Positions 1,011-64,000 of a stretch of 64,000 nucleotides of DNA are shown piece by piece. Where the stretch lies: positions 154,878,001 through 154,942,000 of the forward strand of contig CM059431.1 in NCBI GenBank assembly GCA_030390025.1, read 5' to 3'. The DNA comes from Squalus acanthias. Lineage: Eukaryota. The notes beneath the pieces are model-generated. The model worked only from the letters and a program-made list of their open reading frames with translations, was not told where the DNA came from and searched no databases. Each line of letters begins with the position of its first letter. Positions within the stretch are counted from its first letter, which is position 1. Position numbers and translations under genes: made by a program.

Positions 1011-1049
1011 GCCTAGCACTTCTGTATCGCAAATGTTAACTGCTACCCT

Positions 1050-1310
1050 CATAAGGACAGAATCTGGGCTGTTCGTTGATGATTGCAATGTTCAATTCCA
1101 TTCACAAATCCACAGATAATTAAGCAGTCCCTGTCTGTATGCAGCATGATCTGGTCAAAATGCCACTTTGGGCGGATAAGTGGCAAGTATCAATTGTGCC
1201 ACATAAGTGACAGGCAATAACCATCTGCAGAAAGAGACTCCCTAATGAACTCCTCTGGAGATTCAATGTTATTACCACCGACAAATCCGCCACCATCAAT
1301 AACCTGGTTA
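1050..1310 (+). mobile_element. degenerate RT fragment of the tRNA/Deu-headed LINE family
   Basis: Aligns by eye to 48715-48910 and 62700-62930 (gctgttcgttgatgattgc...gggcggataagtggcaagta). Confidence 0.65.
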
Positions 1311-30129: not shown

Positions 30130-31800
30130 TAAACTAGGGCTCCTTGATTCCACACTCGGTCAAATGTTGCCTTGATGTCAAGGGCAGCCACTCTCATCTC
30201 ACCTCTGGAATTCAGCTCCTTTGTCCATGTTTGGAACAAGGCTGTAATGAGGTCGGGAGCCGAGTGGTCTTGGTGGAACCTAAACTGAGCACCAGTGAGC
30301 ATGTTATTGGGGAGTAATTGCCGCTTGATAGCACTGTTGCTGACACCTTCCATCACTTTGCAGGTGATTGATAGTCGACTGATGGGGCGGTAATTGGCTC
30401 TATTGGATTTGTCCAGCTTTTAGTGGACAGTACATACTTGGGCAGTTTTCCACATTGTCGGATAGATGCCAGTGTTGTAGCTGTACTGGAACAGCTTGGC
30501 TAGAGGCGCAGCTAATTCTGGAGCACATGTCTTCAGCACGATAGCCGGGATGTTGTCGGGGCCCACAGCCTTTTCTGTATCCAGTGCGCTCAGCCGTTTC
30601 TTGATACCACTTGCAGTAAATCGAATTGGCTGAAGACTAGCTTCTGTGACGGTGGTGAACTCAGGAGTAGGCCGATATGGTTCATCCACTCGGCACTTCT
30701 GGCTATAGATGGTTGCAAACGCTTCAGCCTTGTCTTTTGCACTCACGTGCTGAGCTCCACCATCGTTGAGGCTGGGGATATTCTCTCTTCCCGTTAGATG
30801 TTTAATGGTCAACCACCATTCACGACTGGATGTGGCAGGGCTGCAGAGCTTTGATCTCATCCGTTGTTTGTGGGATCACTTAAAATTGTGTATAACATGC
30901 TGCTTTCGCTATTTAGCATGCATGTAGTCCTGATGTTGCAGCTTCCCTGGAAGGCACCTCATTTTTAGGTACGCCTGGTGCTGCTCCTTTCAAGATCTTC
31001 TAAACTCCTTATTGGACCAGGGTTGGTCCGATGGCTTGATGGTAATTTTAGCTTGAGGGATATGCGTGGCCATGAGGTTACAGATTGTGGTTTAATACAA
31101 TTCTTCTGCTGCTGATGTCCCACATCGTCTCAAGGATCCCCAGTTTTGAGCTGCTAGATCTGTTCTGAATTTCTCACCACCTGTCGCAGGCCTAGACTGG
31201 CAGTTATGTGCTTCAGGACTCGGCCAGCTCGGTCAGTAGTGGTGCTACCGATCCACTCTTGGTGGACATTGATGTCCCTCACCCAGCGTAAATTCTGTGC
31301 ACTTGCTACTCGCAGTGCTTCTTACAAGTGGTGTTCAACATGAAGGAGTACTGATTCATCAACTGAGGAAGGGCGTTAGTTGGTAATCAGCAGGAGGTTT
31401 CCTTACCCGTGCTTCACCTGAAGCCATGAGAATTCATGGGGTCCGGAGTCAATGCTAAGGACACCCAGGGCCACTCCTTGCCGACTGTATACCTCTGTGC
31501 CGTCACCCAGGGATGGTGATGGAGGTATTTGGGACATTGCCTGAAGATATGGTTCTGTGAGTATGACTATGTCAGGCTGTTTCTTGACTAGCCTGTGGGA
31601 CAGCTGAACAATCTTGGCAACAGTCCCCAGATGTTGGTGAGGATGACTTTGCGTGTTCGACTGGGCTAGGTGTGCCATTGTCATGTCCGTAGCCGATGCC
31701 TGGTGGCCAGTTGGATTTCATTCTTATTAATTTGTTTCGTAGCGGTTTTGTTATAACTGAGTGGCTTGCTCGGCCATTTCAGAGGGCAGTTAAGCGTCAA
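30130..31800 (-). mobile_element. 5' two-thirds of tRNA/Deu-headed LINE family member
   Basis: Deu end at 31750-31800, then APE (QPDIVILTE) and GPDNIPAIVLKTCAPELAAPLAKLFQ. Confidence 0.85.
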
Positions 31801-32858: not shown

Positions 32859-35800
32859 GCTCCCCCCAGAATCCGCTTAGGAGGTGTGGACGAGACGGTG
32901 CAGCGGTCTGATGGGCCAGCCGGAGCGGCTCTTGTAGGACGCCGGTGGACGTGGAATGGCCGGGCGTGGAGCAGCCGGGTGAACCGGATTGAGGGCAGGT
33001 CGGCCGCGTGGATGTGGACGAGCTACATGGACCTGCTCACCGGGCTCCGAGTGTGCTGACTTGAGTCGGTCAACCGACACTTTTTCGGTCCTGTCGCAGG
33101 GTGAAAAATTTGTCCCCAGCCTGTAGCACCTTGTCAGGCCCGTCGTACGGGGGTTGAAGTGGTCGTCGTGTTGGACGAAATAAAAACCGTGCATTGTGCA
33201 GGCTTAGTGGGACGTGTGAGGTGGATTCACCGTGTCGGGCAATAGGCACTGGGGCAAACTGCAGCGCCGGTGAGGTGAAGTCGTGGCGTTGCTGGTCGGC
33301 TGACCAGGGTGTTGTGGTGCTGGGCAGGAACTCGCCGGGTACGTGCAGCGGCTGACCATACACGAGCTCTGCTGCCGATGCATGGAGGTCTTCTTTAACT
33401 GCGTTGCACAGGCCGAGGAGGACCCGCGGTTGTCGGTCGGTCCAGACGCCTTCCTGGACGCTGGCTCGAAGAGACGCCTTCAAGGATCTGTGGAACCGCT
33501 CACACAGTCCGTTGGCTTGGGGGTGGTACGTTGTGGTGCGGTGAATGGTCACCCCGAGATTGCTTGCGACGGCGGTCCAGAGTTCAGAGGTAAATTGCAG
33601 ACCTCTGTCCGATGTCATGTCGGAGGGGACGCTGAACCGTGCGACCCAGGTGCTGACGAAGGCTCTGGCGATGTCGGCGGTGGTGGTAGAGGTCAGTGGA
33701 ATTGCCTCAGGTCAGCTTGTGGTGCGGTCAACGATGGTCAGCAAGTGCGTGTGGCCTTGCGATGGCGGCAGGGGCCCGATGATGTCCACGTAGATGTGGT
33801 CGAATCTCCGCGAGGGGACGGTAAAATCCTCGAGGTGTCCTTTCGTGTGTTGCTGTACCTTGGCCCGTTGGCAGGCTGGGCAGGAGTGGGCCCAAGTACG
33901 AACATCCTTGCGAAGGCCGCGCCAGACAAAGCGGTTGTCTACCAATTTGATGGATGAGCGGGCGCCGGGGTGGGAGAGGTTGTGGAGAATGTCGAATAGC
34001 CGGCAGCGCCAGGACGCTGGGACGACGGGCCGAGGTTGACATAGGGATATGTCGCACTTGACCGTGACTGCGGTCGGGCCACAGGCGACGTCGGCCAGGC
34101 GTAGCCCTGGTAGGTTGCTGGGTGCGGAGAGCAGATCAGGGTCGGTGATCTGGTCAGCTGCGAGTTGAGCGTATTCGACTGCTAGGTGTGTGGCGTGGAT
34201 GGAAGGGCGGGAGAGGCAGTCGTCTACCACATTGTCTCGGCCGGAGACGTGTTGGATGTCCGTGGTGAACTCGGACACTGCCGTGAGCTGGCGCTGCTGC
34301 CTGGTGGACCAGGGGTCGGTTGTCTTTGCCATTGCGAATGTCAGGGTCTTGTGGTCGACAAACGCAGTGAAGAGGTGGCCCTCAAGCAAAAACCGGAAAT
34401 GGCGGACCGCCAGGAACAGCGCGAGGAACTCGCCGTCGAAGGTGCTGTACTTGACCTCCGGGGGGCATAGTTGGCAGCTGAAAAAGGCAAGTGGTTGCCA
34501 GGCGCCGTCGACGCACTGCTCATACACGGCTCCGACCGCGTGGTTGGAGGCGTCCGTGGTGAGCGCTACCCTGGAATTTGGCCATGGGTGCGTGAGCAGG
34601 TTGGTGTTGTTGAGCGCGGTCTTGGTGGAATCTAAGGCGGCGGACGTGTCTGCCGTCCATTCGACCGCCATCTTGCCGCTCCTGCCCCGGAGGGCTTCCT
34701 ACAGGGGCCTCAAGAGGGACGCCGCTTTGGGGATGAAGCGCTTATAGAAATTCACCATCCCGAGGAGCTTCTGGAGGCCTTTGATGGTGGTGGGGCGGGG
34801 AAATTGTTGGACGGCCTGCACCTTGGTGGGCAGGGGAATGGCTCCAGCATGGGTGATGTGGTGACCGAAGAAGTCGATCTTTACCAGGCCGAACTGGCAT
34901 TTGGCTGGGCTGAGGATGAGCCCGTGGTCACTGAGGCGCCCGAAAAGGATGCGAAGGTTTTCGAGGTGTTCCTGGTTGGAGGAACTGGCTACCAGGATGT
35001 TGTCCAGGTAGATGAACAGGAACTTCAGGTCCCGAAGGACCGAGTCCATGAGCCTTTGGAATGCCTGGGCCGCGTTTTTGAGGCCGAAGGGCATCCGCAG
35101 CAACTCGAACAGGCAGAAGGGGGTGTTTACGGCCGTCTTGGGGACGTCCGCGGGGTGGACGGGACTTGGTGGTAGCCGCGCACCAGGTCGACCTTGGAAA
35201 AGACTGAGCGGCCGGCCAGTCTAGCCGAGAAGTCCTGAATGTGCGGCACGGGGTACCGATCAGCGATGGTGGCGTCATTGAGGCGGCGGTAATCCCCGCA
35301 GGGGCGCCAACCTCCGCCTGGTTTGGGAGCGATGTATAGTGGTGAGGCCCAGGGACTGTTGGCGCGGCGGATGATGCCGAGCTGTTCCATGGTGGCAAAC
35401 TCGGTCCGCGCGATCTCCAGTTTTCCGGGTCCAGCCTGTGGGCATGGGCGTACACTGGGGGGCATGTGGTGGAGATGAAGTGTTCCACCCCGTGTTTGCC
35501 GGCCTCCGCGGAGAAGGTCGGATTGGTAAGGGCCGGGAATTCAGCCAGGAGTGCCGAGTAGTCATCCGTGGCCCGGGCGTGGCACTGTGACGCCTTGTCG
35601 GTGGGTTGACGGGGGGCCATGGCGCCCAGAGTGGAGGACATGGTGTTCATGTCCATGAGGCGGTGATGAGGGATGTCTAGCAGTAAGCCGTGGGCACACA
35701 GGAAATCTGCGCTGATGAGGGGGGAGAGCACCTTGGCAGTGATGAACTCCCATCGGTAGCGGTGACCAGCGAGGTCGAGGGTGACTGTCCGGGTGCCATA

Positions 35801-36694
35801 CGTTCGGATTTCCAAGCCGTTAGCAGCAGCCAGCGCCGGTCCTCGTTCGCCCTTTTGGATGTGGAGGGAAGAGGCCGGGATGATGCTGTGGTGAGCCACA
35901 GTGTCGCACAGGAACTGGCGGCCGGTTTTGTCATCCATGACGAACAGCAGGGAGCCCGCGTGGCCCACGGCCATCGCGGGGGCTGGAACGGGGGCGGACT
36001 TGAAAGAGCAGGGAGGTGTGCACCGTTGTGCCCTGGCGCCGAACCGTGCATGGTAGTAACAGTGGCCCGGGTTAGTGGGAGTGAAGGCCCCGTGGGCCTG
36101 GTGACAGGCCCTTGTGGCCGTGTGCTGGATGGTGAGGGGCGCGCCCAGGAATTGGCTGGCAGGTCCGGAGTGATGTCAAAGCTGGAGTGAGTGGACAGCA
36201 GCTTGACGGCCTCATCGGCCAGGGCTTCCAGGTTCGTGAGGCCGGACACCACGATCGCTGGCCGGATGCTGAGAGGGAGCTGGCGGATGAACAGCGTGTG
36301 GAAGAGGGATCCGGGTGGGCTCTCGTCGGTGAGGGAGAGCATGTGGGAGAGGAGGTCTGACTGTGAGGCATCACCGAGGCCTGGAAGGTCGAGGAGGTGG
36401 CAGTTTCGCTGATATGCCGAGGCCGTAAATATTTTAAGGAGCGCTGTTCTGAGATGTGCGTACTGGCCTTCCTCTGGCGGGTTCTGCAGCGTTGTCCAAA
36501 CCTTGGAAACTGCGGCGCTACTGAGTGATGTCACGAGATAGTCGTACTTCGTCCCATCTGTGATGATATTTCGCAGCCGGAAGCGAGATTCAGCTTGGAC
36601 AAACCAGGCTTCGGGCTGGTTTTCCCAAAACTCCGGCAGTTTCATGGAAACTGCGTTCGTGTCCACCATTGCAGTGCTCGGAATACGTTCTGAG

Positions 36695-46587: not shown

Positions 46588-49500
46588 TAAATCTGCCGTC
46601 CTTACCTGGTCTGGCCTATATGTGACTTCAGACCCAATGTGATTGATTCCTAGCTGCCCTTTCCAATGGCCTAGCAAGCCATGCAGTTGCAAACAACCGC
46701 GACGGTACACAATATACTGAATAAACGTGGACGGACCACCGCCACCGACCTCGGCACCGACTACGGTCGCGACAACGGCACACCCAGTCCAGTGGACCCG
46801 GCAAAGTCCTCCTCACCAACTTCTAGGGACTTGTGCCAAAATTGGGAGAGATGTCCCACAGACTATTCAAGAAAGAGCCTGACATAGTCATACTCACATA
46901 ATTATTCCTTTAAGCCAATGTCCCAAACTCCTCCATCACCATCCCTGGGAATGTCCTGTCCCATCGGCAGGACAGTCCCACCAGGGGTGGCGGCACAGTG
47001 ATATACAGTCCGGAAGGTGTGGCTCTGGTTGTTTTCAACATTTACTCCAGACTCCATGTAGTTTCATGGCTTCAGGTCAAGCATGGGCAAGGACACCTCC
47101 TGCTGATTACAACCTACCGCCCTCCCCCAGCCGATGAACCAGTACTTCTTCATGTTGAACACCACTTGGAAGAAGTAATGAGGGTAGCAAAGGCACAGAA
47201 TGTCCTTTGGGTGGGGGACTTCAATGTCCATCACAAAGAGAGGCTCGGTAGCGCCACTACTGACCGAGCTTGTCCGAGACCTGGAGGACGGAGCAACCAG
47301 TCTGGGCCTAAGACAGATATTGAGAGAACCAACACGAGGGAAAAACCTTCTTGACCTCGTCCTCACCAATCTACCTGTCGCAGATGCATCTGTCCATGAC
47401 AGCATTGTTAGCAGTGACCACCGCACAATCATTTTGGATACGAAGTCCCGTTTTCACGCTGAAGGTACCCTCCATCGTGTTCTGTGTCACTACCACCGTG
47501 CTAAATGGGATAGATTCGGAACAGATCTAGCAGCTCCAAACTGGTCATCCATGAGGCGCTGCGAGCCATCAGCAGCAGCACAATTGTATTCCACCACAAT
47601 CTGTAACCTCATGGCCCGGCATATCCCTTCCTCTAACATTACCATCAAGCCAGGGGACGAACACTGTTTCAGTAAGGAGTGTAGAAGTGCATGCCAGGAG
47701 CAGCACCAGACGTACCTAAAAATGAGGTGCCAAATGTGGGGAAGCTGCAGCACAGGAATACATGCATGTGAAAAAGGGGAAGCAGCATGCTATAGACAGG
47801 ACTGAGCGATCCCAAAATCAACGGATCAGATCACACCTCTGCAGTCCTCTTACATCCAATCGTGAATGGTGGTGGACCATTAAACAACTACTGGGAGGCG
47901 GAGGCTCCATGAATATCCCCATCCTCAATGATGGTTGTGCCCAGCACGTGAGTACAAAAGACAAGGCTGAAGCGTTTCGAACCATCATCAGCCAGAAGTG
48001 CCGAGTGTATGATTCATATCGGCCTACTCCTGATGTCCCCGCCATCACAAGCCATTTTTCAGCCAATTCGATTCACTTCACGTGATATCAAGAAATGGTT
48101 TAGCGCACTGGATACAACACAAGCTATGGGCCCCGACAACATCCCGGCTATCGTGCTGAAGACTTGTGCTTCAGGACCAGCCTTGCCTCTAGCCAAGCTA
48201 TTCCAGTACAGCTACAACACTGGCATCTATCCGACAACGTGGAAAACCGCCCAATTACCGCCCCATCAATCTACTCTCAATCATCGACAAAATGATGTTA
48301 GGTGTAATTAACAGTGCTATCAAGCGGCACTTACTCACCAATAAACTGTTCAATGATGCCCAGTTTCTGTTACGCAAAGACCACTCAGCTCCCGATCTCA
48401 TTACAGCCTAGGTCCCACCATGGACAAAGGGGCAGAATTCAAGCGGTGAGGTGAGAGTGTCTGCCCTTGACATCAAGGCAGTAATTGGCCGGGTGTGGCA
48501 TCAAGGAGCCCTAGTAAAACAGAAGTCAAAGGAAATCGAGGGGAAAACTCTCCACTGGCTGGAATCATACCTAGCACAAAGAAAGGTGGGTATGGTGGTT
48601 GAAGGTCAATCACCGCAGCCCCAGGACATCGCAGCAGGAGTTCCTCAGGTTAGTGTCCTAGGCCCAATCATCTTCAGCTGCTTCATCAATGATCTTCTCA
48701 CCAACATAACGTCAGAAATGGGGATGTTCGCTGATGACTGCAAAGGGTTTAGCACCATTCAGAACTCCTCGGATAAAGAAGCAGTCCATGCCCGCATGCA
48801 ACAAGACCTGGACGACGTTCAGGTTTGGGCTGATAAGTGGCAGATAACATTCACGCCGCACAAGTGCCAGGCAAATGAACATCACCAACAAACGAAATTC
48901 TAACCACCTCCGCTTTTTTCAAGGCTGGGAACTGAACATCCAGGGGTATTCAACATTCAGAAAGGATAGAATAAAAGGAAAAGGGGTGGGGTAGCATTGC
49001 TGGTTAAAGAGGAGATTAATGCAATAGCTAGGAAGGACATCAGCTTGGAGGATGTGGAATCAATATGGGTTCAGCTGCAGAACACCAAAGGGCAGAAAAC
49101 GTTAGTGGGAGTTGTGTACAGACCTGCAAACAGCAGTAGTGAGGTGGGGGAGGGTATGAAACAGGAAATCAGAGGTGCGTGCAAAAAAGGCACGGCAGTT
49201 ATCATGGGTGACTTTAATATGCATATAGATTGGGCTACTCAAACTGGAAGCAATACAGTGGAGGAGGATTTCCTGGAGTGTTTAAGGGATGGTTTCCTAA
49301 ACCAATATGTTGAGGAACCAACTCGAGGGGAGGCCATCCTGGACTGGGTGTTGTGTAATGAGGAAGGACTAATCAGCAATCTTGTGGTACAAGGCCCCCT
49401 GGGGAAGAGTGACCATAGTATGGTGGAGTTCTCCATTAGGATGGAGAAGGAAACAGTTAAGTCAGAGACCATGGTCCAGAACTTAAATAAGGCAAACTTT

Positions 49501-52245
49501 GAGGGTATGAGGCGTGAATTGGCGAGGTTAAATTGGCAAGCGATATTTAAGGGGCTATCAGTGGAAGGGCAATGTCAGACATTTAGAGATCGCATGGATG
49601 AACTACAACAATTGTACATCCCGGTCTGGCATAAAAATAAAAAAGGGAAGGTGGCTCAACCATGGCTAACAAGGGAAATCAGCGATAGTATTAAAACCAA
49701 GGAAGTTGCATACAAATTGGCCAGAAGTAGCAGCAAGCCCGGGGACAGGGAGAACTTCAAAACTCAGCAGAGGAGGACGATGGGTTTGATTAGGCAGGGA
49801 AAATAAAATATGAAAGGAAGCTTGCAGAGAACATTAAAATGGAATGCAAAAGCTTCTATAAATATGTAAAAAGAAAGAGGTTAGTAAAAACAAACGTAGG
49901 TCCCCTGCAGTCGGAAACAGGGGAAGTCGTAATGGGGAACAAGGAAATGGCTGATCAATTGAACAAGTACTTTGGTTCGGTGTTTACTGTGGAGGACACA
50001 CACAACCTGCCGGAAATAAAAGGGGTCAGAGGATCTGGTAAGAGGGAGGAGCTGAGGGAAATCCTTATTACTCGGGAAAAGGTATTGGGGAAATTGATGG
50101 GACTGAAGGCTGAAAAATCCCCGGAGCCTGATGGTCTGCATCCCAGAGTACTTAAGGAGGTGGCCTTGGAAATAGTGGATGCATTGACGATCATTTTCCA
50201 ACAATCATTAGACTCTGGATCAGTTCCGATGGAGTGGAGGGTGGCCAATGTAACCCCTCTTTTTAAAAAAGGAGGGAGGGAGAAACCAGGGAATTATAGA
50301 CCGGTCAGCCTGACATCGGTCGTGGGTAAAGTGATGGAAGCAATTATTAAAGATGTCATAACAGACCATTTGGAAAGTGGCGACATGATAGGTCCAAGTC
50401 AGCATGGATATGTGAAAGAGAAATCATGCTTGACAAATCTTTTGGAATTTTTTGAGGATGTTTCCAATAGGGTGGACAGGGGGGAACCAGTAGATGTGGT
50501 GTATTTGGACTTTCAGAAGGCCTTCGACAAGGTCCCACACAAGAGATTGGTGAGCAAAGTTAAAGCACATGGGATTGGGGGTAATGTGTTGACGTGGATT
50601 GAGAACTGGTTGGCACACAGGAAACAAAGCGTAGGAGTAAATGGGTACTTTTCAGAATGGCAGGCAGTGACCAGCGGGGTACCGCAGGGTTCGGTGCTGG
50701 AACCCCAGCTGTTTACATTATATATTAATGATTTGGACGAAGAGATGAAATGTAATATCTCCAAATTTGCTGATGACACTAAATTGGGAGGCAGTGTGAA
50801 TAATGAGGAGGATGCTAGGAGGCTACAGAGTGACTTGGACAGGTTGGGTGAATGGGCAAATGTATTGCAGATGAATTACAATGTGGATAAATGTGAGGTT
50901 ATCCACTTTGGTGGTAAAAATAGAGAGGCGGACTATTACCTGAATGGTGGCAGATTAGGGAAAGGGGAGGTGCAACGAGACCTGGTCTCCTAACTTAAGG
51001 AAGGACATTCTTGCTATTGGGGGAGCGCAGCGAAGGTTCACTAGATTGATTCCAGGGATGGCCGGTCTGACATATCAAGAAAGGTTGGGTCAACTGAACT
51101 TGTATCCACTGGAGTTCAGAAGAATGAGGGGGGATCTTATAGAGACATTTAAAATCCTGACTAGTTTAGACAAATTAGATGCGGGCAGAATGTTCCCAAT
51201 GTTAGGGAAAACTAGAACCAGGGGTCACAGTCTAAGGATTAAGGGGAAGCCATTTAAGACTGAGCTGAGAAGGAACTTCTTCACCCAGAGAGTGGTGAAT
51301 CTATGGAATTCTCTACCACAGAAGGTTGTTGAGGCCAGTTCGCTAAATATATTCAAAAGGGAGTTAGATATAACACTCACAACTAGGGGGATCAAGGTGT
51401 ATGGCGAGAAAGCAGGAATGGGGTACTAAGGTAGCATGTCCAGCCATGAACGCATTGATTGGCGGTGCAGGCTCGAAGGACCGAATGGTCTACTCCTGTA
51501 CCTATTTTCTATGTTTCTATGTTTCTATGTAATTCAACGGCATTACAATCGCCGAATCCCACAACATCAGCATCCTGGGGGTCACCATTGACCAGAAATT
51601 TAAGTGGATCAGTCAAAAAAATATTGAGGCAACAAGAGCAGTTTAGAACCTAGATATTCTGCGGCGAGTGTCCCACCGCGTGACTCCAGAAATCCTTTCC
51701 TCCATCTCCAAGGGACAAGTAAGGAGTGTGAAGGAATACTCTCCACTTGACTGGATGTGTGCAGCTCCAGCAACACTCAAGAAGCTCGACACCATCCAGG
51801 ACTTAGCAGGCCGCTTGATTGGCATCCTTTCGACCACCTTAAACATTCACTCCTTCCATCAGCGGAGTACCGTGGCTCCACTGTGTACGATCTACAAGAT
51901 GCATTGCAGAAACTCGCCAAGGCTTATTCGACAGCACCTCCCAAACCCGCAAAGTCTTCCACGTAGAAGGACAAGGGCAGCAGACGCATGGGAACACCAC
52001 CACCTCCAAATTCCCCTCCAAATCACACACCATCCTGACTTGGAAGTATATCGCCGATCCTTCAATGTTGCTGATTCAAAATCCTGGAAATCCCTCTCTA
52101 ACAGCACTGTGGGCGTACCTTCACCACCAGGACTGCAGCCGGTCAGGAAGGCGGCTCACCACCACATTCGTAAGGGCAATTAGGGATGGGCAATAAATGC
52201 TGGCCTTGCCAGCGATGCTCACATCCCATAAACGAATAAATACAA
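46588..52245 (+). mobile_element. tRNA/Deu-headed LINE copy (head truncated), split by a nested CR1
   Basis: Deu end 46588-46690, APE (TTYRPP, VGDFN, SDH), RT (MFADD) to 48915, resumes 51533-52245; collinear with 60585-63606. Confidence 0.88.
48923..51532 (+). mobile_element. 5'-truncated CR1 LINE nested in Deu-LINE
   Basis: ORFs 48997-49806, 49839-50993, 51046-51429; internal deletion near 50985; (TTTCTATG)n tail; possible TSD ttcaa. Confidence 0.92.
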
Positions 52246-52249
52246 AAAA

Positions 52250-55200
52250 GTTTACTGTTTCCTTCTTTAACTTTTCACTGTTTCCTGTTCCTGCTGTTCC
52301 CTATTTTTATGTTTAATGTTTCCAACTTTTCCTATTTCCTTTTTTTTTACTTTCTCTGATGTTTCCTCTTTCCTACATTTACTTTTTCCTATGTTTACCG
52401 TTTCCTACATTTCCTCTTTTTCCTTTTTTACTGTTTCCTATGTTCAACGTTATCTATGTTTAATATTTCCATTGTTTCCTTTTTCTTATGTTTTATTTTG
52501 CCAATACTTCCTATTTCGAATATTTACTTTTTCCTAAATTTCCTACTTTCTTTTCTGACTGTTTCCGACGACCAATATTTCCTATGATTAACGTTTCCAA
52601 TATTTCCTGTTTCTGATGTTTAATATTTCCCATGTTTCCCAATTCCTACGTTTTCAATGTTTCCGATTTTCTTTGTTTACTTTTTTCTATGTTTCCTCTT
52701 TTCTGTATTTCCTATATTTCCTATTTTCCTATGTTTAATGTTTCCTATGCTTAATGTTTCCTATGTTTAATGTGTCCTATGTTTACTTATTACTATGATT
52801 CCTGTTTCCGACGTTTACTATTTCCTATGTTTACTATTTCCTATGTTTACTATTTCCTATGTTTACTATTTCCTATGTTTACTATTTGCTTAATTATCTG
52901 TTTCCTATATTTCCGCTTTTCTTTTTTCACTATTTACTTTATTTCTTCTGTTTCCTGTTTCCTATTTTTCCTGTTTTCTTATGTTTCCTTCTCCTACGTT
53001 TACAGTTTCATATATTCACTTTTTCTAATTTTTACTGTTTACTATGGTCCAATATTTCTTATATTTCCATTTGCCTATGTTCACTTTACTGCTTTATATG
53101 TTTACAATTTCCTACTTTTAATCTTTCCACTGTTGCCTGTTCCCTATGTTTACTTTTTCTAAAATGTTGCATTTTTTCTATGTTTACTGTTTCCTATCTT
53201 TCCTGATTCCTATTTTCGATGTTTCCACTTTCCTTTGTTTACTGTTTCTTATGTTTTGTGTTTCCTATGTTTACTGTTCCCTATGTTATTGTTTCCTATG
53301 ATTCATGTTTCCTATGCTTACTGTTTCCGATAGTTTTTATTTCCTGTTTCCTACCTAATGTTTTCTCGATCATATTTTCCCTCTTTCATAAGTTCCATGT
53401 TTCCTATGTTTCGTGTTTGTTAGAGTTCCTTTCCCTTAGGATTCCTATTTCATGTTTGCTATGTTTTCCATATCCGATGGTTATTATTTCGTATATTTAG
53501 TATATCCCATGTTACCTGTTACCTATGTTTACTCTTTCCTCATCCCTAAATTTACTATGTCCTATTTTTACTGTTTCTTATGCTACCTATTTTCTATGTT
53601 TATTGTTTCTTATCATACAATCGTGGAAATTGACGCCACAGAAGGAGACGATGTTGTCTGTACCATTTCTCCTTTGTCTTCTTTTTACTGTTTCCGATGT
53701 TTCCTATTTCCTATGTTTACATTTGCTTTTTTTTCTGCTCCCTATGTTTACTGTCTCTCATTTTGCCTCTTTTGTATGTCCTGTTTCCTGTCGACTGTTT
53801 ACTCTATCATGTCTTTTCTTTATCATAAGTTCCATGTTTCCTATATTTCTTATAGTTCCTTTTCCCTAGGATTCCTGTTTCCTGTTTGCTATGTTTTTCA
53901 TATCCTATGCTTATTTCGTATATTTAATGTATCCTGTTTCCTGCTTCCTACTTTTACTATTTGCTATTCCCTAAATTTACTGTGTCCTATATTTACTGTT
54001 TCTTATGTTACCTATTTTCTATGCTTATTGTTTCTTATCATACAATAGTGGACATTTATGCCACAGAAGGAGACGATGTTGTCTGTACCTTTTCTCCTGT
54101 TTCTTCTTTTTATGGTTTACTAAGTTTACTGTTTCCTATATTTCCTCTTTCCTATGTTTACTGTCTCTCATTTTGCCTCTTTCCTATGTTTACTGTTTCC
54201 TATGTTACAGATTTCCTCTTTCCTGTACACTCCGTTTAATTATTCCAATGCTTCATGTTTCCTATGTCTCCTCTTAACGGTGTTTCCTCTTTGTTCTGTT
54301 TAGTGCTTTCCGTTTCCTTTGCTTCCTGTTTCCTGTATTTCATGTTTCATATATTTTCTGTTGACTATGTTTTCGATGTCCTATGTTTCCTATTTTCTTT
54401 GTTTTACTGTTTCCTATGTTTCCTCTTTCCTTTGTTTCAGTTTTATTACGTTTTCCGATTTCCTATGTTTATTGTTTCATATGTTTCTTTTTTCATATGT
54501 TTAATTATTCCAGAGATTACTGTTTCTTATGTTTCCTGTTTCTTGTTTCCTGCTTCTTATGTTTCCTTTTTATGTTTCCTGGTTGCTGTGTGTCCTGTTT
54601 CATATACAGTGGACTGTTGTATAGCAAATGTAATACGTATATATAAGAAGGGAGACAGAACATGTCCAGGAAACTATAGACCAGTCAGCTTAACATCGAT
54701 GGTAGGAATAACAATGGAATACTTAATAAAGGGGAAATAGGAGGACATCTAGTAACCAAAAAATATAATAATGCATAATCAGCATGGATTTCAAAAGGAG
54801 ACGTCTTGCTTAACCAACCTCATTGAATTTTTTGAAGAGTTAACAGAGAGCGTAGACAAGGTTAATGCAGTAGATATAATTTATGTAGATTTTCAAAAAG
54901 TCCTTCGACAAGGTACCACTTAATGGAATAATGAATAAGGTCAGAGAATGCGGACTCAGGGGACATGAAGCATAATAGCTGTCTCGCTGGCTCCAAGACA
55001 GAAAGCAGAGTGTAGGGGGAAAGAGTAGCAATTCAAAGTGGTAGAAGGTGGAAATACCAGTTCCACAAGGATCAGCGTTGGAACAAATGTTGTTCACAAT
55101 TCATATAACGGTTTATTCTTTGGAATCAAAAAAGCAATTTCTAATTTTGCGGATGATATCAAATAGGGGGGAAGGGGGTTAGTCAAACAGAGGAGGTCTG

Positions 55201-57457: not shown

Positions 57458-60352
57458 TGCGAGAAGCATCAGGAACAAGGTAGATGAATTAGCTGTGGAA
57501 ATAGAGGATAATAATTATGATCTAATTGGGATTACGGAAACATGGTTGCAGGGTGAGCAGGGCTGGGAGCTTAACATACAGGGGTATTCAGTATTTAGGA
57601 AGGATCGACAAAAAAGAAAGGGAGGAGGGGTAGCATTGCTGGTAAAAGAAGGGATAAATGCAATTGAAAGGAAGGATATTAACTCAGTTAATACAGAATC
57701 TATATGGGTGGAGCTAAGAAATAGCGAGGGGCGAAAAACATTAATAGGAGTGGTATATAGGCCTCCAAATAGTAAAATAGAGGTTGGGGAGGGCATCACG
57801 AGGGAAATTAGAGAAGCGTGCAATAAGAGCACAGCTGTCATCATAGGTGACTTTAACTTACATATAGATTGGAATAGCCTAATCAGTAAAAATAATGATG
57901 AGGAGGAATTCCTTGAGTGTTTAAGGGATGGTTATCTGGATCAATATATCGAGGAACCAACTCGGGAACAGGCTATATTGGACTGGGTACTGTGCAATGA
58001 GAAGGGACTAATTAGTAATCTTGTTGTACGGGGACCCTTGGGTCAGAGCGATCATAACATGATCGATTTCTCACTCGAAATGGAGAGCGAAGAAATTGAC
58101 TCAGATACTAAGGTCCTGAATTTAAACAAGGGGAATTATGATGCCATTAGACGGGAACTGAGTAGGTCTGATTGGACAACGTTCCTGGGAGGACTGGAGG
58201 TAGATAAACAATGGCAAGCATTTAAAGATAGAATGACAAAATTGCAAAAATTGTTTATACCAATCTGGCATAAAAGGAAATCTAAAAAGGTGACCCAACC
58301 GTGGATAACAGGGGAAATTAGAGACAGCATAAAATCCAAAGATAGGGCGTATAAAATAGCCAAAAAAAGCGCCAGAGCGGAAGATTGGGAACAGTTTAAG
58401 ATAGAGCAAAGGAGGACAAAGGGCTTAATCAAGAGGGGCAAAATAGCTTACGAAAGCAAGCTGGCGGAAAATTTAAAAACTAACTACAAAAGCTTTTATA
58501 AGTATATCAAGAGGAAAAGACTGGTGAAAACCAAAGTTGGCCCATTGCAGTCAGATACGGGGGAATATATAACGGGAAATAAGGAAATGGCAGACCAACT
58601 AAATGCATACTTTGGGTCAGTCTTTACGAAGGAAGACACAAAAAACCTCCCTGGGATATCGGGAAAAATAGGGACATTTGCAAAGGAGGAACTGACGCAA
58701 ATCAATATCTCTAAGGATATGGTGTTAAGGAAGCTAAAGGGATTGAAGGCGGACAAATCCCCAGGGCCTGATAACATGCATCCTAGGGTGCTGAAGGAGG
58801 TGGCCCTAGAGATAGCGGATGCACTAAGTATGATTTTTCAGAATTCATTAGACTCGGGAACAGTGCCCATGGATTGGAGGGTAGCTAACGTTACCCCACT
58901 ATTCAAAAAGGGGGGTAGGGAAAAAGCAGGTAATTACAGACCTGTAAGCCTTACATCAGTTGTGGGCAAAATGCTGGAGTCCATCATTAAGGATGAAATA
59001 GCGGAGCACTTAGCAAATGGGGACAGGATAGGACAGAGTCAACATGGATTTACAAAGGGTAAATCGTGCTTGACTAATCTATTGGAATTTTTTGAGGGAG
59101 TAACTGGTAAAATAGATGGGGGAGAGCCAGTAGATGTGGTGTACCTGGACTTCCAAAAGGCCTTCGAAAAGGTCCCACATAAAAGATTAGCAGGGAAAAT
59201 TGAAGCTCATGGGATAAAGGGGAAAGTATTGACGTGGATAGAGAACTGGCTGTCAGATAGAAAACAGAGAGTTGGAATAAACGGCTCATTTTCTGAATGG
59301 CAGGCAGTAACAAGTGGGGTACCACAGGGATCTGTCCTGGGTCCCCAGCTGTTCACAATTTACATTAATGACCTGGATCAGGGAGTCGGATGCAGCATTT
59401 CCAAATTTGCAGACGACACTAAACTAGGAGGGGGGGGGGGGGGTGGGCTCAGAGGAGGAGACCAGGAAGCTCCAGAGCGATTTGGACAGACTGGGTGATT
59501 GGGCGGATAAATGGCAGATGCACTATAATGTGGACAAGTGCGAAGTTATCCACCTTGGGTGCAGGAACGGGAGGGCAAATTATTATTTAAATGGCAATAA
59601 ATTGGGAGAGGGGGAAGTACAGAGAGACCTGGGTGTTCTTGTACACCAGTCACTGAAGGCGAGCATGCAGGTGCAACAGGCAGTCAAGAAGGCAAACGGT
59701 ATGCTGGCCTTCATAGCAAAAGGGTTGGAATACAGGAACAGGGATACCTTGCTGCAGCTGTACAGGGCACTGGTGAGACCACACCTCGAGTACTGTGTAC
59801 AGTTTTGGTCGCCTCATCTGAGGAAAGATGTTCTTGCCATGGAGGGGGTGCAGCGGCGATTCACCAGGCTGATACCAGGAATGGCGGGATTAACCTATGA
59901 GCAGAGACTATGTAGTTTAGGGATGTACACACTGGAGTTTAGAAGATTGAGAGGGGACCTCATGGAAGTATATAAAATTCTGACAGGTCTAGACAGGCTA
60001 GATGCAGAAGGAATGTTTCCCTTGGCGGGTGAGAACAGAACTAGAGGACATAATTTAAGGATAAGGGCTAAACCATTTAGGACAGAAATGAGGGGGAATT
60101 TCTTCACTCAGAGGGTGGTGAACCTGTGGAACTCATTGCCACAGAGGGCAGTGTACGCCAGCTCATTAAATATATTTAAGAGGGAATTAGATATATTTCT
60201 ACAGGCAAAAGGGGTTAAGGGTTACGGAGAGAAGGCGGGGACGGGATACTGAATTGGAGGATCAGCCATGATCTCATTAAATGGCGGAGCAGGCTCGAAG
60301 GGCCGGATGGCCTACTCCTGCTCCTATCTTCTATGTATCTATGTATCTATGT
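57458..60352 (+). mobile_element. young 5'-truncated CR1 LINE with nearly intact ORF2
   Basis: ORFs 57441-59498 and 59443-60252; single frameshift in the G14 run at 59430-59443; (TCTATGTA)n tail. Confidence 0.95.
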
Positions 60353-60363
60353 TCCATTAGAAC

Positions 60364-63300
60364 GGTAGCATAGTGGTAATGTCACTGGTACCAGTAATCC
60401 AGCAGGACTGAGCTAATGATCCGGTAAACGTGGGTTCAAATTCCACCACGGAAGCAGGGGAATTTAAATTCAGTGTTAATTAAATAAATCTGTAATAAAA
60501 AGTTAGCATAAGTTAATGGTAACCATGAAACTATCAGATTGTCGTAAAAACCCATCTCCTTCAATAATGTCCTTTCGGGAAGGAAATCTGCCGTCCTTAC
60601 CTGGTCTGATCTATATATGTCTCCAGACCCACATAACTGTGGTTGTTTCTTAACTACGCTCTGAAATGGTCTATCAAGCCACTCAGTTGTAAAAAAACCC
60701 GCTACGAAACACAATAATAAGAATTAAACCGGACGGAACACACGGCATCGAACTCGGCACTGGCTTGGACACGGCAACGGCACACCAGGCGACCCTGCAA
60801 AGTCTTCCTCACCATCATCTGGGGCTTGTGCCAAAATTGGGAGAGTTGTGCCACAGACTAGGCAAGCAACAGCCTGACATAGTATTACTCACAGAATTAT
60901 AAATTTCAGCCAATGTCCCAAACTCTTCCATCACAATCCTAAGATATGCCCTGCCCCAGCGGCAGGACAAACCCACCAGGGGTGGTGGCACAGTGGTATA
61001 CAATCGGGAAGGAGTGGCCCTGGGAGTCCTCGACATTCACTCTGGACCCCATGAAGACTCATGGCTTCAGGTCAAGCACGGGCAAGGAAACCTCCTGCTG
61101 CTTACCACCTACCGCCCTTCCTCAGCTGTTGAATAAGTACTCCTCCACGTTGAGCACCACTTGGAAGAAGCAATGAGAGAAGCAAGGGCACAGAATGTAT
61201 TAACGTCCATCACCAAGAGTGGCTCGGCAGCACCAATGCTGGCCGAGTCCTGAAGTGCTCAGCTGCCAGTCTGGGCCAGCGACAGGTGGTGAGCGAACCA
61301 ACACGATGGAAAAACCTACTTGACCTCGGCCTCACCTATCGACCTGTCAGAGATGCATCTATCCATGACAGCATTGGTAGCAGTGACCGCCGCACAATCA
61401 TTCTGGAGACGAAGTCCCGTCTTCACACTGAGGACACACTCCATCGTGTTGTGTGGCACTACCACCGTGCTAAATGGGATAGCTACAGATCTAGCAGCTC
61501 AAACTTGGGCATCCATGAGGCGCTGTGGGCCATCAGCAGCAGCAGAATTGTATTCCACCACAATCTGTAACCTCATGGCCAGGCATATCCCTCACTCTAC
61601 CATTACCAATAAGCCAGGGGACCAACACTGTTTCAATAAGTAGTGTAGAAGAGAATGCCAAGAGCAGCAACAGGCGTACCTAAAAATGAGGTGCAAACGT
61701 GGGGAAGCTGCAACACAGGACTACATGCCTGTGAAAAAGGTGAAGAAGCATGCTTTAGACAAACGTAAGCGATCCCACAATCAACGGATCAGATCAAAGC
61801 TCTGCAGTCCAACCATATCCGGTCGTGGACCACGAAGTAACTATCGGGTGGAGGAGGCTCCATGAATATCCCCATCCTCAATGACGGTGGAGCCCAGCAC
61901 GTGACTGTACAAGATAAGGCTGAAGCGTTCGCAATCATCTTCAGCCAGAAGTGCCGAGTGGGTGATCCATATCGGCCTACTCCTGAGGTCCCTACCATCA
62001 CAGAAGCCAGTTTCCAGCCAATTCGATTCAGTCCACATGATATCAAAAAAAGGCTTAGCGCACTGGATACAACAAAGACTATGGGCCCCGAAAACAGCCC
62101 GGCTATCGTGCTGCAGAATTGGCCGCAACTCTAGTCAAGCTGTTCCAATGCAGCTACAACACTGGCATCTATCCGACAATTTGGAAAACTATCCAGGAAT
62201 GTCCTGTCCGCAAAAAGCAGGACAAATCCATACCGGCCAATTGACGCCCCATCGGTCTACTGTCAATCATCAGCAAAGTGATGGAAGGTTTCATCGACAG
62301 TGCTATCAAGCGGCACTTACTCACCAATAACCTGCTCACTGATGCCCAGTGTGGGTTCCAACAAGATCACTCGGATCCCGACCTCATTACAGCCTTGTTC
62401 CAAACATGGACAAACGAGCTGAATTCCAGAGGTGAAGTGAGAGTAACTGCCCTTGACATCAAGGCTGCATTTGACTGGATGTGGCATCAAGGTCCCCTAG
62501 TAAAATTTCAGTCAATGGGAATCGGAGGGAAAACTCTCCACTGGCTGGAGTCATACCTAGCACAAAGGCAGATGGTTGTGGTGCTTGAAGTTCAATCATC
62601 ACAAGCCCCAGGACATCGCTGCAGGTGTTCCTCAGGGAAGGTCCGAGGCACAACCATCTTCAGCTGCTTCATCAATGACATTTGCTCCAACCTAAGAGCA
62701 GAAATGGGGCTGTTAGCTGATGTCTGCACAGTGTACAGCGCCATTCACAACTCCTCTGATAAGGCAGCAGTTCATGCCCGCATGCAACATGACTTGGACG
62801 ACGTTCAGGTTTGGGCTGATCAGTGGCAGGTAACATTCGCGCCATAGAAGTGCCAGGCAATGACTATCTCCAAATTGCGAGAGTGTAACCACCAACCCTT
62901 GACTTTCAACGGCATTACCATCGCTGAATCCCCAATCATCACCATTGACCAGAAACTTAACTGGACTAGCCACATGAATACTTTACCAACAAGCGCAGGT
63001 CAGAGGCTAGGTATTCTGCGGCGAATTTCTCACCTCCTGATTAACCAAAGCCTTTCCAACATCTACAATGCGCAAGTAGAGGAGTGTGATGTAATACTCT
63101 CCTCTTCCTTGGGTGAGTGCAGCTCCAACAACACTCAAGAAGCTCGACACCATCCAGGACAAAGCAGCCCGTTTGATTGGCACCCCATCCAGCATCTTAA
63201 ACAATCACTCCCTCCACCACCGGCGTACCGTGGCTGCAATGTGTATCATCTATGAGATGCACAGCAACAGCTCGCCAAGGCTTCTTTGGCATCACCTCCC

Positions 63301-63606
63301 AAACCCGCGACCTCTTCCAAGTAGAAGGACAAGGGCAGCAGGCGCATGGGAACACCACCACCTCCAAGTTCCCCTCCAAGTCACACATCATCCAAACTTA
63401 GAAGTATATCGCCGATCCCTCATCGTCGCTGGGACAAAATCCTGGAACTCCCTACCTAACAGCAGTGTGGGAGTACTTTCACCACACAGAGTGCAGCGGT
63501 TCAAGAAGGCGGCTCACCTCCACCTTCTCAAGGGCAATTATAGATGGGCAATAAATGCTGGCCTTGCCAGCGACGCCCACATCGCATAATCGAATATAAA
63601 AAAAAA
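60364..63606 (+). mobile_element. full-length decayed tRNA/Deu-headed LINE lacking ORF1 (APE + RT, CR1-group)
   Basis: A-box 60366-60376, B-box 60433-60444, Deu-like body 60520-60690, APE from ~60800 (QQPDIVLLTE), RT 62278-62847, A-rich end. Confidence 0.88.
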
Positions 63607-64000
63607 GTGTTTACATTTTCCTACGTTTAACGTTCCCTATATTTGTTGTTTCCTCTGTTTATTTTCCCGATATTTAAAGTTACTGCTTTTACTGTTTCTT
63701 CTGTTTCTCCTTACCTATGCTTCGTGTTTCTTTTGTTTCCTCTTTCCTATGTTTATTGTTTCCTTTGTTTACTATTTCTTATGTTTCGTGTTACCTAAGT
63801 TTTCTGCATCTGATATTTGGAGTTTGTTATGCTTCCTATTTCCCAGGTTTACTTTTTCCAATCTTTTATATTCCCTATGGTTAGGTCTCACTTGTTTACT
63901 GTTTCCTCTGTTTCCCGCTCCCTCTGTTTACTGTTTCCTATGATTAGTTTTTCTTATATTTACTGTTTCTTATATTTGCTGTTTCTTATGTTTACTGATT
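63607..64000 (+). repeat. degenerate T-rich array, continuation
   Basis: Same motifs as 52250-57457. Confidence 0.8.

What the first reader, a model, noticed from the sequence alone, without database searches (positions are those of the whole stretch)
60364..63606. Protein-coding LINE with a tRNA-derived Pol III head and Deu domain in place of 5' UTR/ORF1
Seen: A and B boxes, then a Deu-like SINE body, then after only ~110 nt an APE-RT region and LINE tail. The same Deu-to-APE junction recurs at 46588-46850 (+) and 31600-31800 (-), so the chimera spread as a unit rather than being a chance SINE beside a LINE. Established: CR1-group LINEs normally use Pol II and carry ORF1, and tRNA+Deu heads define SacSINE1-type SINEs. 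Inference: a once-autonomous retroelement driven by an internal Pol III promoter. All copies here are decayed, and I cannot assign a start codon.
Basis: partly seen in the sequence, partly recalled or inferred. Interest (0 to 1): 0.9.

Follow-up and report, generated by a model that had tools for sequence, protein, structure and literature searches.

The report
LINE that starts with SINE head
A 3.25-kb protein-coding jumping gene, present in thousands of copies in this shark-like genome, begins with the same tRNA-like head and body as the short non-coding SINE that rides on it, so it may have been copied by the polymerase that normally makes only small RNAs.

Summary
Window 60358-63606 (+) is one decayed copy of a ~3.25-kb non-LTR retrotransposon.

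- **Structure.** The first ~350 nt are the tRNA-related head plus body of the resident ~430-bp SINE. The last ~125 nt are that SINE's tail.
- **Coding part.** One ~950-codon endonuclease/reverse-transcriptase frame lies between them. There is no ORF1.
- **5' ends.** Of 29 copies picked by the endonuclease part alone, 19 reach the head's first bases. The other 10 are cut short at scattered points.
- **Full-length copies.** 11 of 20 fetched copies are collinear from head to tail.
- **Decay.** Stop codons are private to single copies.
- **Selection.** Shared changes are enriched for synonymous ones (p=3e-4), so the frame was once under selection.
- **Pol III drive.** This is plausible but unproven. 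LINE and SINE forms share one 5' end 8 nt before box A. The ancestral sense strand had no T4 run in 3.25 kb, whereas three other LINE families here carry 1.9-4.9 per kb.
- **T runs versus codon use.** T runs are rarer than codon usage predicts, and control frames show no such deficit.
- **Start codon.** No conserved AUG exists.
- **Prior reports.** Six literature searches found no description of this arrangement. Repbase and Dfam could not be checked.

The parts
60358..60447 (+). tRNA-related head and 5' terminus of the unit. Box A lies at 60366-60376 and box B at 60433-60444. In most copies GG precedes 60360; the window copy has TA.
   Evidence: Rfam tRNA match at 60365-60447: 22.2 bits, E 0.034, below the gathering score. 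7 of 20 sister heads score 22.6-27.3 bits. GG precedes the head in 23 of 28 LINE-type and 6 of 8 SINE heads.
60448..60709 (+). Body shared with the resident SINE (the 'Deu-like' part). Together with the head it forms the whole 5' UTR of the long form.
   Evidence: Alignment of 17 SINE copies, 1 SINE-type copy with a LINE-like head, and 12 LINE 5' parts. Homology runs to about 60696-60710. Mean identity is 0.888 SINE-SINE, 0.897 LINE-LINE and 0.880 SINE-LINE. Only 4 columns are diagnostic. The Deu identity was not tested.
60690..60692 (+). In-frame TAA that closes the frame just before the long ORF opens.
   Evidence: A stop stands in this column in 11 of 12 aligned full-length copies.
60704..60706 (+). 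Conserved ACG, the fourth codon of the open frame, with G at -3. It is a candidate non-AUG start.
   Evidence: By my count, of 48 sister rows (some are one genomic copy under two locus ids) about 31 have ACG, 9 ATG and 4 ACA, as CpG decay of an ancestral ACG would give; the rest have other letters or a deletion. No conserved in-frame ATG occurs before 61515.
60693..63541 (+). Single long reading frame of about 950 codons. The APE part runs from about 60795 and the RT part lies at about 62200-62960. In the window copy it is broken by 8 stops and 27 gapped codons.
   Evidence: No stop is shared by a third or more of 12 copies over 970 codons, window 60695-63538. Stops are private: 41 columns in one copy and 3 columns in two. 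Pfam: PF14529 at 5.4e-9; PF00078 at 1e-36 and 1.1e-38. Shared versus singleton changes: synonymous/non-synonymous 69/113 versus 204/632, p=3e-4.
60723..60725 (+). Place of an ATG in the +1 frame (ATT in the window copy). It opens a short frame of about 46 codons that overlaps the main frame and ends at a shared stop near 60859.
   Evidence: ATG in 9 of 12 copies and the stop in 12 of 12. One subfamily reads AATAAAACC here and lacks this ATG.
63478..63606 (+). 3' end shared with the SINE: the last ~60 nt of the frame, a ~56-nt 3' UTR, and an A-rich tail.
   Evidence: Window SINE copy 28646-28540 equals 63484-63590. SINE junction subtypes begin at about 63478-63495. 3' ends of 14 long copies were read.

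Best explanation
Shown, and I hold it at about 0.9. This is one retrotransposon lineage that exists in two length forms.
- The long form (~3.25 kb) is a single-ORF APE-RT LINE.
- Its entire 5' UTR is the tRNA-related head plus body of the resident SacSINE1-like SINE, and its 3' end is that SINE's tail.
- The short form (~430 bp) is the same element without the reading frame.
- Both forms begin at the same nucleotide, and the long form's frame was kept open by selection.
- Which form gave rise to the other is unresolved.

Inferred, at about 0.45. The RNA that was copied back into the genome was made from the internal box A/box B promoter by RNA polymerase III.
- It started about 8 nt upstream of box A, as for the SINE.
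- The polymerase could read through 3.25 kb because the sense strand had been purged of T runs.
- The uncapped RNA was translated by an unconventional start, because no AUG is conserved. An ACG in good context sits four codons into the frame.
- The protein then copied its own RNA and the SINE's through the shared tail.
For: **Unit.**
- The junction query gave 40 of 40 scored matches spanning it, on about 20 contigs.
- With an APE-only query, 19 of 29 sister copies reach 60340-60371. Two of these do so across an interruption. The other 10 stop at scattered points between 60393 and 60782. None shows another shared 5' sequence.
- 11 of 20 fetched copies are collinear from 60360 (one from 60340) to 63596-63610, with lengths of 3129-3286 nt.
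- Of the 20 best matches to the head plus body alone, 19 continue into APE.

**Coding.**
- Stops are private to single copies.
- Shared changes are enriched for synonymous ones (odds ratio 1.89, p=3e-4).

**Same start as the SINE.** GG followed by GAACGG is the 5' terminus in 23 of 28 LINE-type and 6 of 8 SINE heads.

**Heads barely differ.** Only 4 diagnostic columns in about 340 separate the SINE and LINE heads, and none lies in the boxes.

**T-run avoidance.**
- Each copy has 0-1 T4+ run, always at a different place, against 14-18 A4+ runs.
- This family has 0.18 T4+ runs per kb. Three other LINE families here have 1.9, 4.9 and 4.4 per kb. The window copies of two of those are 98-99% identical to their sisters.
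- T-run extension probabilities are 0.166, 0.121 and 0.052, against 0.25-0.29, 0.26-0.39 and 0.17-0.38 in the controls.
- Shuffling synonymous codons predicts 11.6-15.1 T3+ runs where 6-10 are seen. P is 0.083 or lower in 10 of 11 non-window copies, which are not independent of each other.
- 7 control frame pieces show observed counts close to expected, P 0.10-0.93.
Against: - There are no RNA data. No RNA holder was listed, and the contigs were too short to bridge the junction.
- The absence of T4 is not significant on its own. Dinucleotide-preserving shuffles give about 2 runs per copy, and 9-14% of shuffles of four sister copies have none (2% for the window copy).
- The family strongly prefers C-ending over T-ending codons (TTT:TTC is 46:186), which explains part of the depletion.
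- About 11 T3 runs per copy remain.
- A terminator at the 3' end is not consistent. A T4+ run stands next to the A run in only 3 of 14 long and 4 of 17 short copies.
- Pol III transcripts of 3 kb and their translation are unusual. A 2024 paper states that non-LTR retrotransposons use Pol II and that Pol III processivity limits element length (PMC10886601, passages read).
- The tRNA match is below Rfam's threshold.
- No acceptor stem is matched.
- All 11 sister full-length copies are broken. The longest open piece is 527 aa.
Confidence: 0.45

Rival explanations
1. Pol II element with a borrowed 5' UTR. The LINE took over the SINE's 5' part by template switching or recombination, much as other LINEs replace their 5' UTRs. 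An internal Pol II promoter in the head or body sets the same start site. The A/B boxes serve only the short form.
For: - The literature treats all non-LTR retrotransposons, and bipartite deletion derivatives, as Pol II units (PMC5786205 Discussion; PMC10886601 passages).
- L1Tc/ingi and their deletion derivatives share a 5' Pol II promoter (PMC1874656; only the start of the abstract, from the search listing).
- A 3.25-kb coding RNA fits Pol II better.
- The absence of T4 alone is not significant against dinucleotide shuffles.
- C-ending codon bias accounts for part of the depletion.
Against: - It needs a Pol II promoter that starts at exactly the SINE's first base.
- It does not predict fewer T runs than synonymous shuffles give, a deficit that 7 control LINE frame pieces lack.
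- It does not explain the absence of any AUG for a scanning ribosome.
Confidence: 0.35
2. The 5' end is made by processing, not by a promoter. Copies are read through from neighbouring host transcription units. The tRNA-like head is then cut at its first base by a tRNA-processing enzyme, in the way that ribozymes free the 5' end of R2 and some RTE elements.
For: - The 5' ends are precise and shared.
- An uncapped RNA without a conserved AUG would fit this reading.
Against: - The Rfam match covers model positions 7-64 only, so no acceptor stem is seen, and RNase P needs one (that requirement is recalled).
- This reading does not predict T-run avoidance.
Confidence: 0.08
3. Non-autonomous passenger. 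A 5'-truncated LINE fused once to a SINE 5' part, and another, conventional LINE then moved it in trans. The frame stayed open only because the burst of copying was short.
For: - No conserved AUG exists.
- All 11 sister full-length copies are broken.
Against: - Shared changes are enriched for synonymous ones compared with private changes (p=3e-4).
- No stop is shared by a third or more of 12 copies over 970 codons.
- No second 5' form turned up among 29 copies chosen by the APE part alone.
Confidence: 0.07
4. Not a unit: a chance SINE beside a LINE, local segmental duplicates, or many independent template-switch chimeras.
For: None beyond the prior that such one-off chimeras exist (tRNA/L1 and U6/L1 chimeras; bioRxiv 10.1101/2025.02.02.635956, passages read).
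Against: The same junction is present in 40 of 40 scored matches on about 20 contigs. In addition, 19 of 20 best matches to the head plus body continue into APE, and 11 of 20 fetched copies are collinear along their full length.
Confidence: 0.02

Closest known systems
SacSINE1 / tRNA-headed DeuSINEs and their L2 partner (L2-2_CM)
   Same: The short form here has the described build: a tRNA-related head with A and B boxes, a conserved body, and a tail like the 3' end of an L2 LINE (PMC5499810: abstract, section 7 and passages read).
   Different: That paper draws only tail homology between the SINE and the LINE. Here the LINE also carries the SINE's whole head and body as its 5' UTR. Identity with SacSINE1, the Deu domain or L2-2_CM could not be tested by sequence, because no library was at hand.
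SINEs whose bodies come from LINE 5' parts; bipartite non-autonomous LINEs (Kojima 2018, PMC5786205)
   Same: The short element shares both the 5' and the 3' end of a LINE, and several deletion junctions occur.
   Different: Kojima found only RTE and Vingi 5' parts in SINE bodies, and no LINE counterpart for the conserved bodies such as Deu (abstract and Discussion read). In his model the small-RNA head is added to the deleted form. Here the full-length coding form carries the head too.
ingi/RIME and L1Tc/NARTc
   Same: An autonomous LINE and its internal-deletion derivative share the 5' promoter segment and the 3' end.
   Different: There the shared 5' segment (Pr77) is a Pol II-dependent promoter (PMC1874656; only the start of the abstract, from the search listing). 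Here it is a tRNA-type head.
R2 and other ribozyme-headed LINEs
   Same: A LINE whose RNA is not made from its own Pol II promoter. Its precise 5' end is set by a structured RNA element. The lack of a conserved start codon in some R2 elements is recalled.
   Different: R2 is co-transcribed with rRNA and cuts itself free (PMC3414825; only the start of the abstract, from the search listing; PMC5786205 Discussion). Here no ribozyme was found, and the head is tRNA-like.
TRIMp3 elements (Cassandra, Helenus, Ajax)
   Same: These are retroelements of a class normally read by Pol II that carry a small-RNA-derived Pol III promoter (PMC10886601, passages read).
   Different: They are short (311-1263 bp), non-coding LTR elements. 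This one is a 3.25-kb coding non-LTR element.
U6/L1 and tRNA/L1 chimeric insertions
   Same: A small RNA is joined to the 5' side of LINE sequence by template switching.
   Different: Those are one-off insertions, the tRNA pieces are mostly half-length and antisense (bioRxiv 10.1101/2025.02.02.635956, passages read), and they do not propagate. Here one junction was amplified thousands of times.

Membership tests
APE-type non-LTR retrotransposon (LINE) | Apurinic-like endonuclease domain upstream of the RT | tested here: met
   PF14529 Exo_endo_phos_2 at 5.4e-9, 36.4 bits against a cut-off of 27.4, in L043:628-1998.
APE-type non-LTR retrotransposon (LINE) | Reverse transcriptase domain | tested here: met
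   PF00078 RVT_1 at 1e-36 and 1.1e-38. The best solved relative is L1 ORF2p at 2.2e-11.
APE-type non-LTR retrotransposon (LINE) | Many 5'-truncated copies with a common 3' end | tested here: met
   10 of 29 copies are truncated at scattered points. Three window copies are truncated. The 3' ends are A-rich.
APE-type non-LTR retrotransposon (LINE) | Target-site duplications | tested here: inconclusive
   A clear flanking repeat is seen in 1 of 12 copies (21 nt, L041), with a possible one in L042. The rest are no better than shuffles.
L2 clade (CR1 group) | RT groups with L2 references in a phylogeny | not testable with these tools
   No reference LINE proteins were at hand. The nearest database proteins are 44-48% identical and mostly unnamed. 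The L2 label comes from PMC5499810.
L2 clade (CR1 group) | ORF1 upstream of ORF2 (present in many members, not all) | tested here: not met
   Only about 335 nt lie before the long frame, and they are full of shared stops in all three frames.
tRNA-derived SINE (SacSINE1-type DeuSINE) | tRNA-related head with box A and box B | tested here: met
   Rfam tRNA match at the 5' end in the window copy (22.2 bits) and in 7 of 20 sister heads (22.6-27.3 bits). All are below the gathering score of 29 and all lie at the same place. The box motifs were read, and their consensus is recalled.
tRNA-derived SINE (SacSINE1-type DeuSINE) | Deu domain in the body | not testable with these tools
   No Deu reference sequence was available. 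Nishihara 2006 is not held and the supplements of PMC5499810 are not readable. Only position and build agree.
tRNA-derived SINE (SacSINE1-type DeuSINE) | Short and non-coding | tested here: not met
   The long form is 3129-3286 nt with a frame of about 950 codons. The 430-bp form does meet this feature.
Type 2 Pol III transcription unit | Body free of T4+ terminators on the sense strand | tested here: met
   0-1 T4+ run per copy, none shared between copies, against 1.9-4.9 per kb in three other LINE families.
Type 2 Pol III transcription unit | T-run terminator at the 3' end | tested here: inconclusive
   A T4+ run stands beside the A run in 3 of 14 long and 4 of 17 short copies.
Type 2 Pol III transcription unit | Transcription by Pol III (TFIIIC binding, 5'-triphosphate RNA) | not testable with these tools
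   No RNA holder was listed, and contigs cannot show RNA starts.

The most novel reading that the evidence does not exclude
[quoted passage not shown] The tRNA-Deu SINEs of cartilaginous fish, and perhaps of other vertebrates, are its internal-deletion forms. On this reading the long-enigmatic Deu 'central domain' is simply this LINE's 5' UTR.
Probability: 0.35. Interest if true: 0.9.

Novelty: new variant of a known kind. Interest (0 to 1): 0.75.

Why it matters
Textbooks split non-LTR retroelements into LINEs and SINEs. LINEs use Pol II and code for protein. SINEs use Pol III, are short and non-coding, and borrow only the LINE's tail.

Here a coding LINE carries the full SINE head and conserved body. 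This has three consequences:
- It gives a concrete LINE counterpart for a conserved SINE body. Kojima (2018) could find none for Deu, CORE or V.
- It makes the origin of such bodies testable by looking at the 5' ends of the partner LINEs in chimaeras, rays and coelacanth.
- It offers a natural candidate for a long, translated Pol III transcript.

Even if Pol II turns out to drive it, the case still shows a LINE and its SINE exchanging or sharing a complete 5' unit. It also warns that repeat annotation will split such elements into 'SINE' plus '5'-truncated LINE'.

Tried and rejected
- **ARAGORN** finds no tRNA in the window. The head is too diverged and has an insert.
- **RNA evidence.** No RNA holder was listed.
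- **Laid contigs.**
  - Contigs of four runs guessed to be RNA, from three coded organisms, were laid on L053.
  - They cover all 30 bins, but they are about 200 nt long, and no listed piece bridges the SINE-to-APE junction.
  - They say nothing about transcripts or their starts.
  - They did show several SINE-type joints, for example 637 to 3459, 3460 or 3487.
- **T4 absence alone.** Against dinucleotide-preserving shuffles, 9-14% of shuffles of four sister copies also have none (2% for the window copy), so this is not significant. I therefore moved to family controls and synonymous shuffles.
- **Start codon, idea 1.** A subfamily (L049/L051) has an in-frame ATG at the column of window 60704. 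I rejected it as ancestral. By my count, of 48 sister rows (some are duplicates of one copy) about 31 read ACG, 9 ATG and 4 ACA, which is the CpG-decay pattern.
- **Start codon, idea 2.** A fusion by -1 frameshift from the short +1 frame that starts at 60723. I rejected it as general, because one subfamily lacks that ATG and I saw no canonical slippery heptamer when reading the overlap.
- **Start codon, idea 3.** Read-through from the in-frame ATG at 60666 would need to pass two stops. I judged this unlikely.
- **N-terminus from homologues.** This was uninformative. The L043 open piece starts in another frame, and the database proteins are gene calls on decayed copies.
- **Target-site duplications.** 1-2 of 12 copies show one.
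- **Fold of one head**. It was not used, because that copy has an insertion.
- **Earlier scan notes.** Nothing relevant was found.
  - Nishihara 2006 is not held.
  - The supplements of PMC5499810 are not readable.
  - Those files may hold the SacSINE1 and L2-2_CM alignments that bear on the Deu label and on whether the chimaera LINE has the same head.
- **More copies.** Smaller stretches were taken instead.
Full report
**What is in the window.**

The stretch 60358-63606 (+) reads, in order, as follows.
- A tRNA-related head. Rfam's tRNA model matches 60365-60447 at 22.2 bits, E 0.034, below the gathering score of 29. The match covers model positions 7-64 with a 31-nt insert in the anticodon region. 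ARAGORN calls nothing.
- A body of about 260 nt.
- A decayed endonuclease and reverse-transcriptase region.
- An A-rich end.

A self-comparison of the window shows an ordinary SINE copy at 28972-28540 (-). That copy consists of 60362-60689 joined directly to 63484-63590. So the element's two ends are the two halves of the resident SINE.

46589-48908 equals 60584-62893, and 31794-31173 (-) equals 60649-61293. Both are truncated inside the body and lack the head.

**It is a unit, genome-wide.** The window lies in a 3.7-Gb assembly.
- A 401-nt query across the body-to-APE junction gave 7014 first-look candidates. All 40 scored matches cover about the whole query at 85-100% identity, on about 20 contigs.
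- To avoid choosing copies by their 5' part, I queried with APE sequence alone (60830-61330). That gave 5675 candidates, of which 40 were scored.
- Of the 29 sister loci returned, 19 extend 5' to 60340-71. Two of these do so across an interruption. The other 10 stop at scattered points (60393, 60428, 60453, 60485, 60515, 60537, 60545, 60604, 60659, 60782). None shows another common 5' sequence.
- Of 20 candidates fetched at full length, 11 are collinear with the window copy from 60360 (one from 60340) to 63596-63610. They are 3129-3286 nt long. The other 9 are truncated, rearranged or interrupted.
- Querying with the head plus body alone gave 6372 candidates. Of the 20 best sister copies, 19 run on into APE and one is SINE-type.

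**The exact 5' end.**
- GG stands immediately before GAACGG in 23 of 28 LINE-type heads and in 6 of 8 SINE heads that a loose head pattern found. The window copy has TA there.
- Both length forms therefore begin at the same base, 8 nt before box A (60366-76).
- 7 of 20 sister heads give the same sub-threshold tRNA match, at 22.6-27.3 bits, at the same place.

**The coding part.**
- In an alignment of 12 full-length copies, mean pairwise identity is 0.922. One frame has no stop shared by a third or more of the copies for 970 codons, window 60695-63538. The other two frames manage 72 and 120 codons.
- Stops are private. They fall in 41 columns in one copy and 3 columns in two. Each copy has 0-8 stops plus gapped codons.
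- No copy is intact. The longest open piece among the 11 sister copies is 527 aa.
- Pfam finds Exo_endo_phos_2 (5.4e-9) and RVT_1 (1e-36 and 1.1e-38).
- The nearest solved structure is L1 ORF2p, at 2.2e-11.
- The nearest database proteins are only 44-48% identical. They come from metagenomes, amphioxus and arthropods. One shark protein is 76% identical over a third of the query.
- Changes shared by two or more copies arose in source elements. They are 69 synonymous to 113 non-synonymous. Private changes, which are decay after insertion, are 204 to 632 (odds ratio 1.89, p=3e-4). Parallel CpG hits would only dilute this signal.
- The frame was therefore under purifying selection while the family diversified. 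That fits an autonomous element.
- There is no room for an ORF1. The 335 nt before the frame have shared stops in all three frames.

**Relation to the SINE.** I fetched 16 SINE copies (8282 candidates).
- In an alignment with the LINE 5' parts, homology runs from the first base to about 60696-60710. That is just past the in-frame TAA at 60690-92.
- Over this stretch, mean identity is 0.888 SINE-SINE, 0.897 LINE-LINE and 0.880 SINE-LINE.
- Only four columns are diagnostic (60378, 60383, 60390, 60521). Some copies of either kind carry the other kind's states.
- SINE copies fall into several junction subtypes. The 5' breaks lie around 60696-60710 and the 3' breaks around 63478-63495. Similar joints appear in the laid contigs.
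- The two forms are thus contemporaries that share, or keep exchanging, a complete 5' unit and a 3' unit.
- The data do not say whether the SINE arose from the LINE by internal deletion or the LINE took the SINE's 5' part.

**Start of translation.**
- No in-frame ATG is conserved between the TAA and window 61515, which lies beyond most of the endonuclease part.
- An in-frame ATG at 60666 is cut off by two stops.
- An ATG in the +1 frame at 60723 (9 of 12 copies) opens a short overlapping frame of about 46 codons. One subfamily lacks it.
- The fourth codon of the frame is ACG, with G at -3. By my count of 48 sister rows, some of which are one copy under two ids, about 31 read ACG, 9 ATG and 4 ACA. 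This is what CpG decay of an ancestral ACG gives.
- The start remains open. A non-AUG or cap-independent start is the simplest reading.

**Is Pol III plausible?** Besides the boxes and the shared 5' end, I tested one specific prediction: a Pol III template must lack T runs on the sense strand. The T4 rule is recalled.
- The 12 copies have 0-1 T4+ run each, always at a different place. The ancestor therefore had none in 3.25 kb. The same copies have 14-18 A4+ runs.
- Base composition predicts 4.2 T4+ runs.
- Dinucleotide-preserving shuffles predict only about 2 in four sister copies, with no run in 9-14% of shuffles. The zero is therefore not significant on its own.
- Three other LINE families in the window have 1.9, 4.9 and 4.4 T4+ runs per kb, against 0.18 here. 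The window copies of two of them are 98-99% identical to their sisters and so are essentially undecayed.
- Their T-run extension probabilities are 0.25-0.29, 0.26-0.39 and 0.17-0.38, against 0.166, 0.121 and 0.052 here.
- Part of the difference is codon usage (TTT:TTC is 46:186).
- Shuffling synonymous codons within each copy still predicts 11.6-15.1 T3+ runs where 6-10 are seen. P is 0.083 or lower in 10 of 11 non-window copies, and those copies share ancestry.
- Seven frame pieces of the control families show observed counts close to expected, P 0.10-0.93.
- T-run avoidance is therefore real and specific to this family, but its statistical weight is modest.
- A terminator at the end is not consistent. 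It is seen in 3 of 14 long and 4 of 17 short copies.

**What is known.**
- Luchetti et al. 2017 (PMC5499810; abstract, section 7 and passages read) describe SacSINE1-type SINEs in chimaera, sharks, skate and coelacanth. These have a tRNA head, a Deu domain, and a tail like the 3' end of the L2-2_CM LINE. The paper draws only the tail as shared with the LINE.
- Kojima 2018 (PMC5786205; abstract and Discussion read) compared all Repbase SINEs and LINEs. Only RTE and Vingi 5' parts were found in SINE bodies. The paper notes that no counterpart of the conserved bodies had been found.
- Kojima 2024 (PMC10886601; passages read) states that non-LTR elements use Pol II and SINEs use Pol III. It also states that Pol III processivity limits element length.
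- Six full-text searches turned up no tRNA-headed coding LINE.
- Repbase and Dfam could not be searched. The supplements and the 2006 paper that hold the reference sequences could not be read.
- The 'Deu' and 'L2' labels therefore rest on the literature, not on a test here.

**Verdict.**
- The reading 'once-autonomous element' is supported.
- 'Driven by Pol III' is the single most likely mechanism in my view, at about 0.45. A Pol II promoter in the borrowed 5' UTR stands at about 0.35.
- I left out building a family consensus or a restored frame (see referred steps). Per-copy and per-column statistics gave what was needed.

Noticed in passing
window 57471-60352 (+): A different LINE ends in a TCTATGTA-type microsatellite a few bases before the element. 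Its copies elsewhere are 99% identical over 2.3-2.6 kb (3199 candidates), so the family is very young. The window copy holds open pieces of 701 and 274 aa.
   Followed up: partly
window 19234-21900 (-): Another LINE family whose copies are 98-99% identical over 2.7 kb (2362 candidates). It also looks young.
   Followed up: partly
window 6101-8583 (-): A third LINE family with copies 92-95% identical. It gave the largest first-look count of the families examined (11256 candidates).
   Followed up: partly
window 63688-63997: A T-rich tandem array directly downstream of the element. The period is 16, there are 19.4 copies with 64% matches, and the unit is TTTCCTGTTTCCTATG.
   Followed up: no
window 48908-51533 (+): The family copy at 46589-52274 is split by an insertion of about 2.6 kb that holds RT-like frames of yet another LINE family.
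   Followed up: no
window 34001-36000: GC rises to 0.62 against about 0.40-0.47 elsewhere. This may be a CpG island or a gene part.
   Followed up: no
L002/L010 (same contig, about 0.7 Mb from the window): This is the sister copy closest to the window copy (89-92% identical across the three queries). It is rearranged, and a 350-nt match to the window's upstream LINE tail (73% identical) lies beside it in a different arrangement.
   Followed up: no
SINE loci L081, L085, L087, L089; long copies L040, L042, L049: In some copies of both length forms the tail is a T run of 4-10 beside the A run, either T then A or A then CA then T8. This recalls SINE tails that carry a Pol III terminator.
   Followed up: partly
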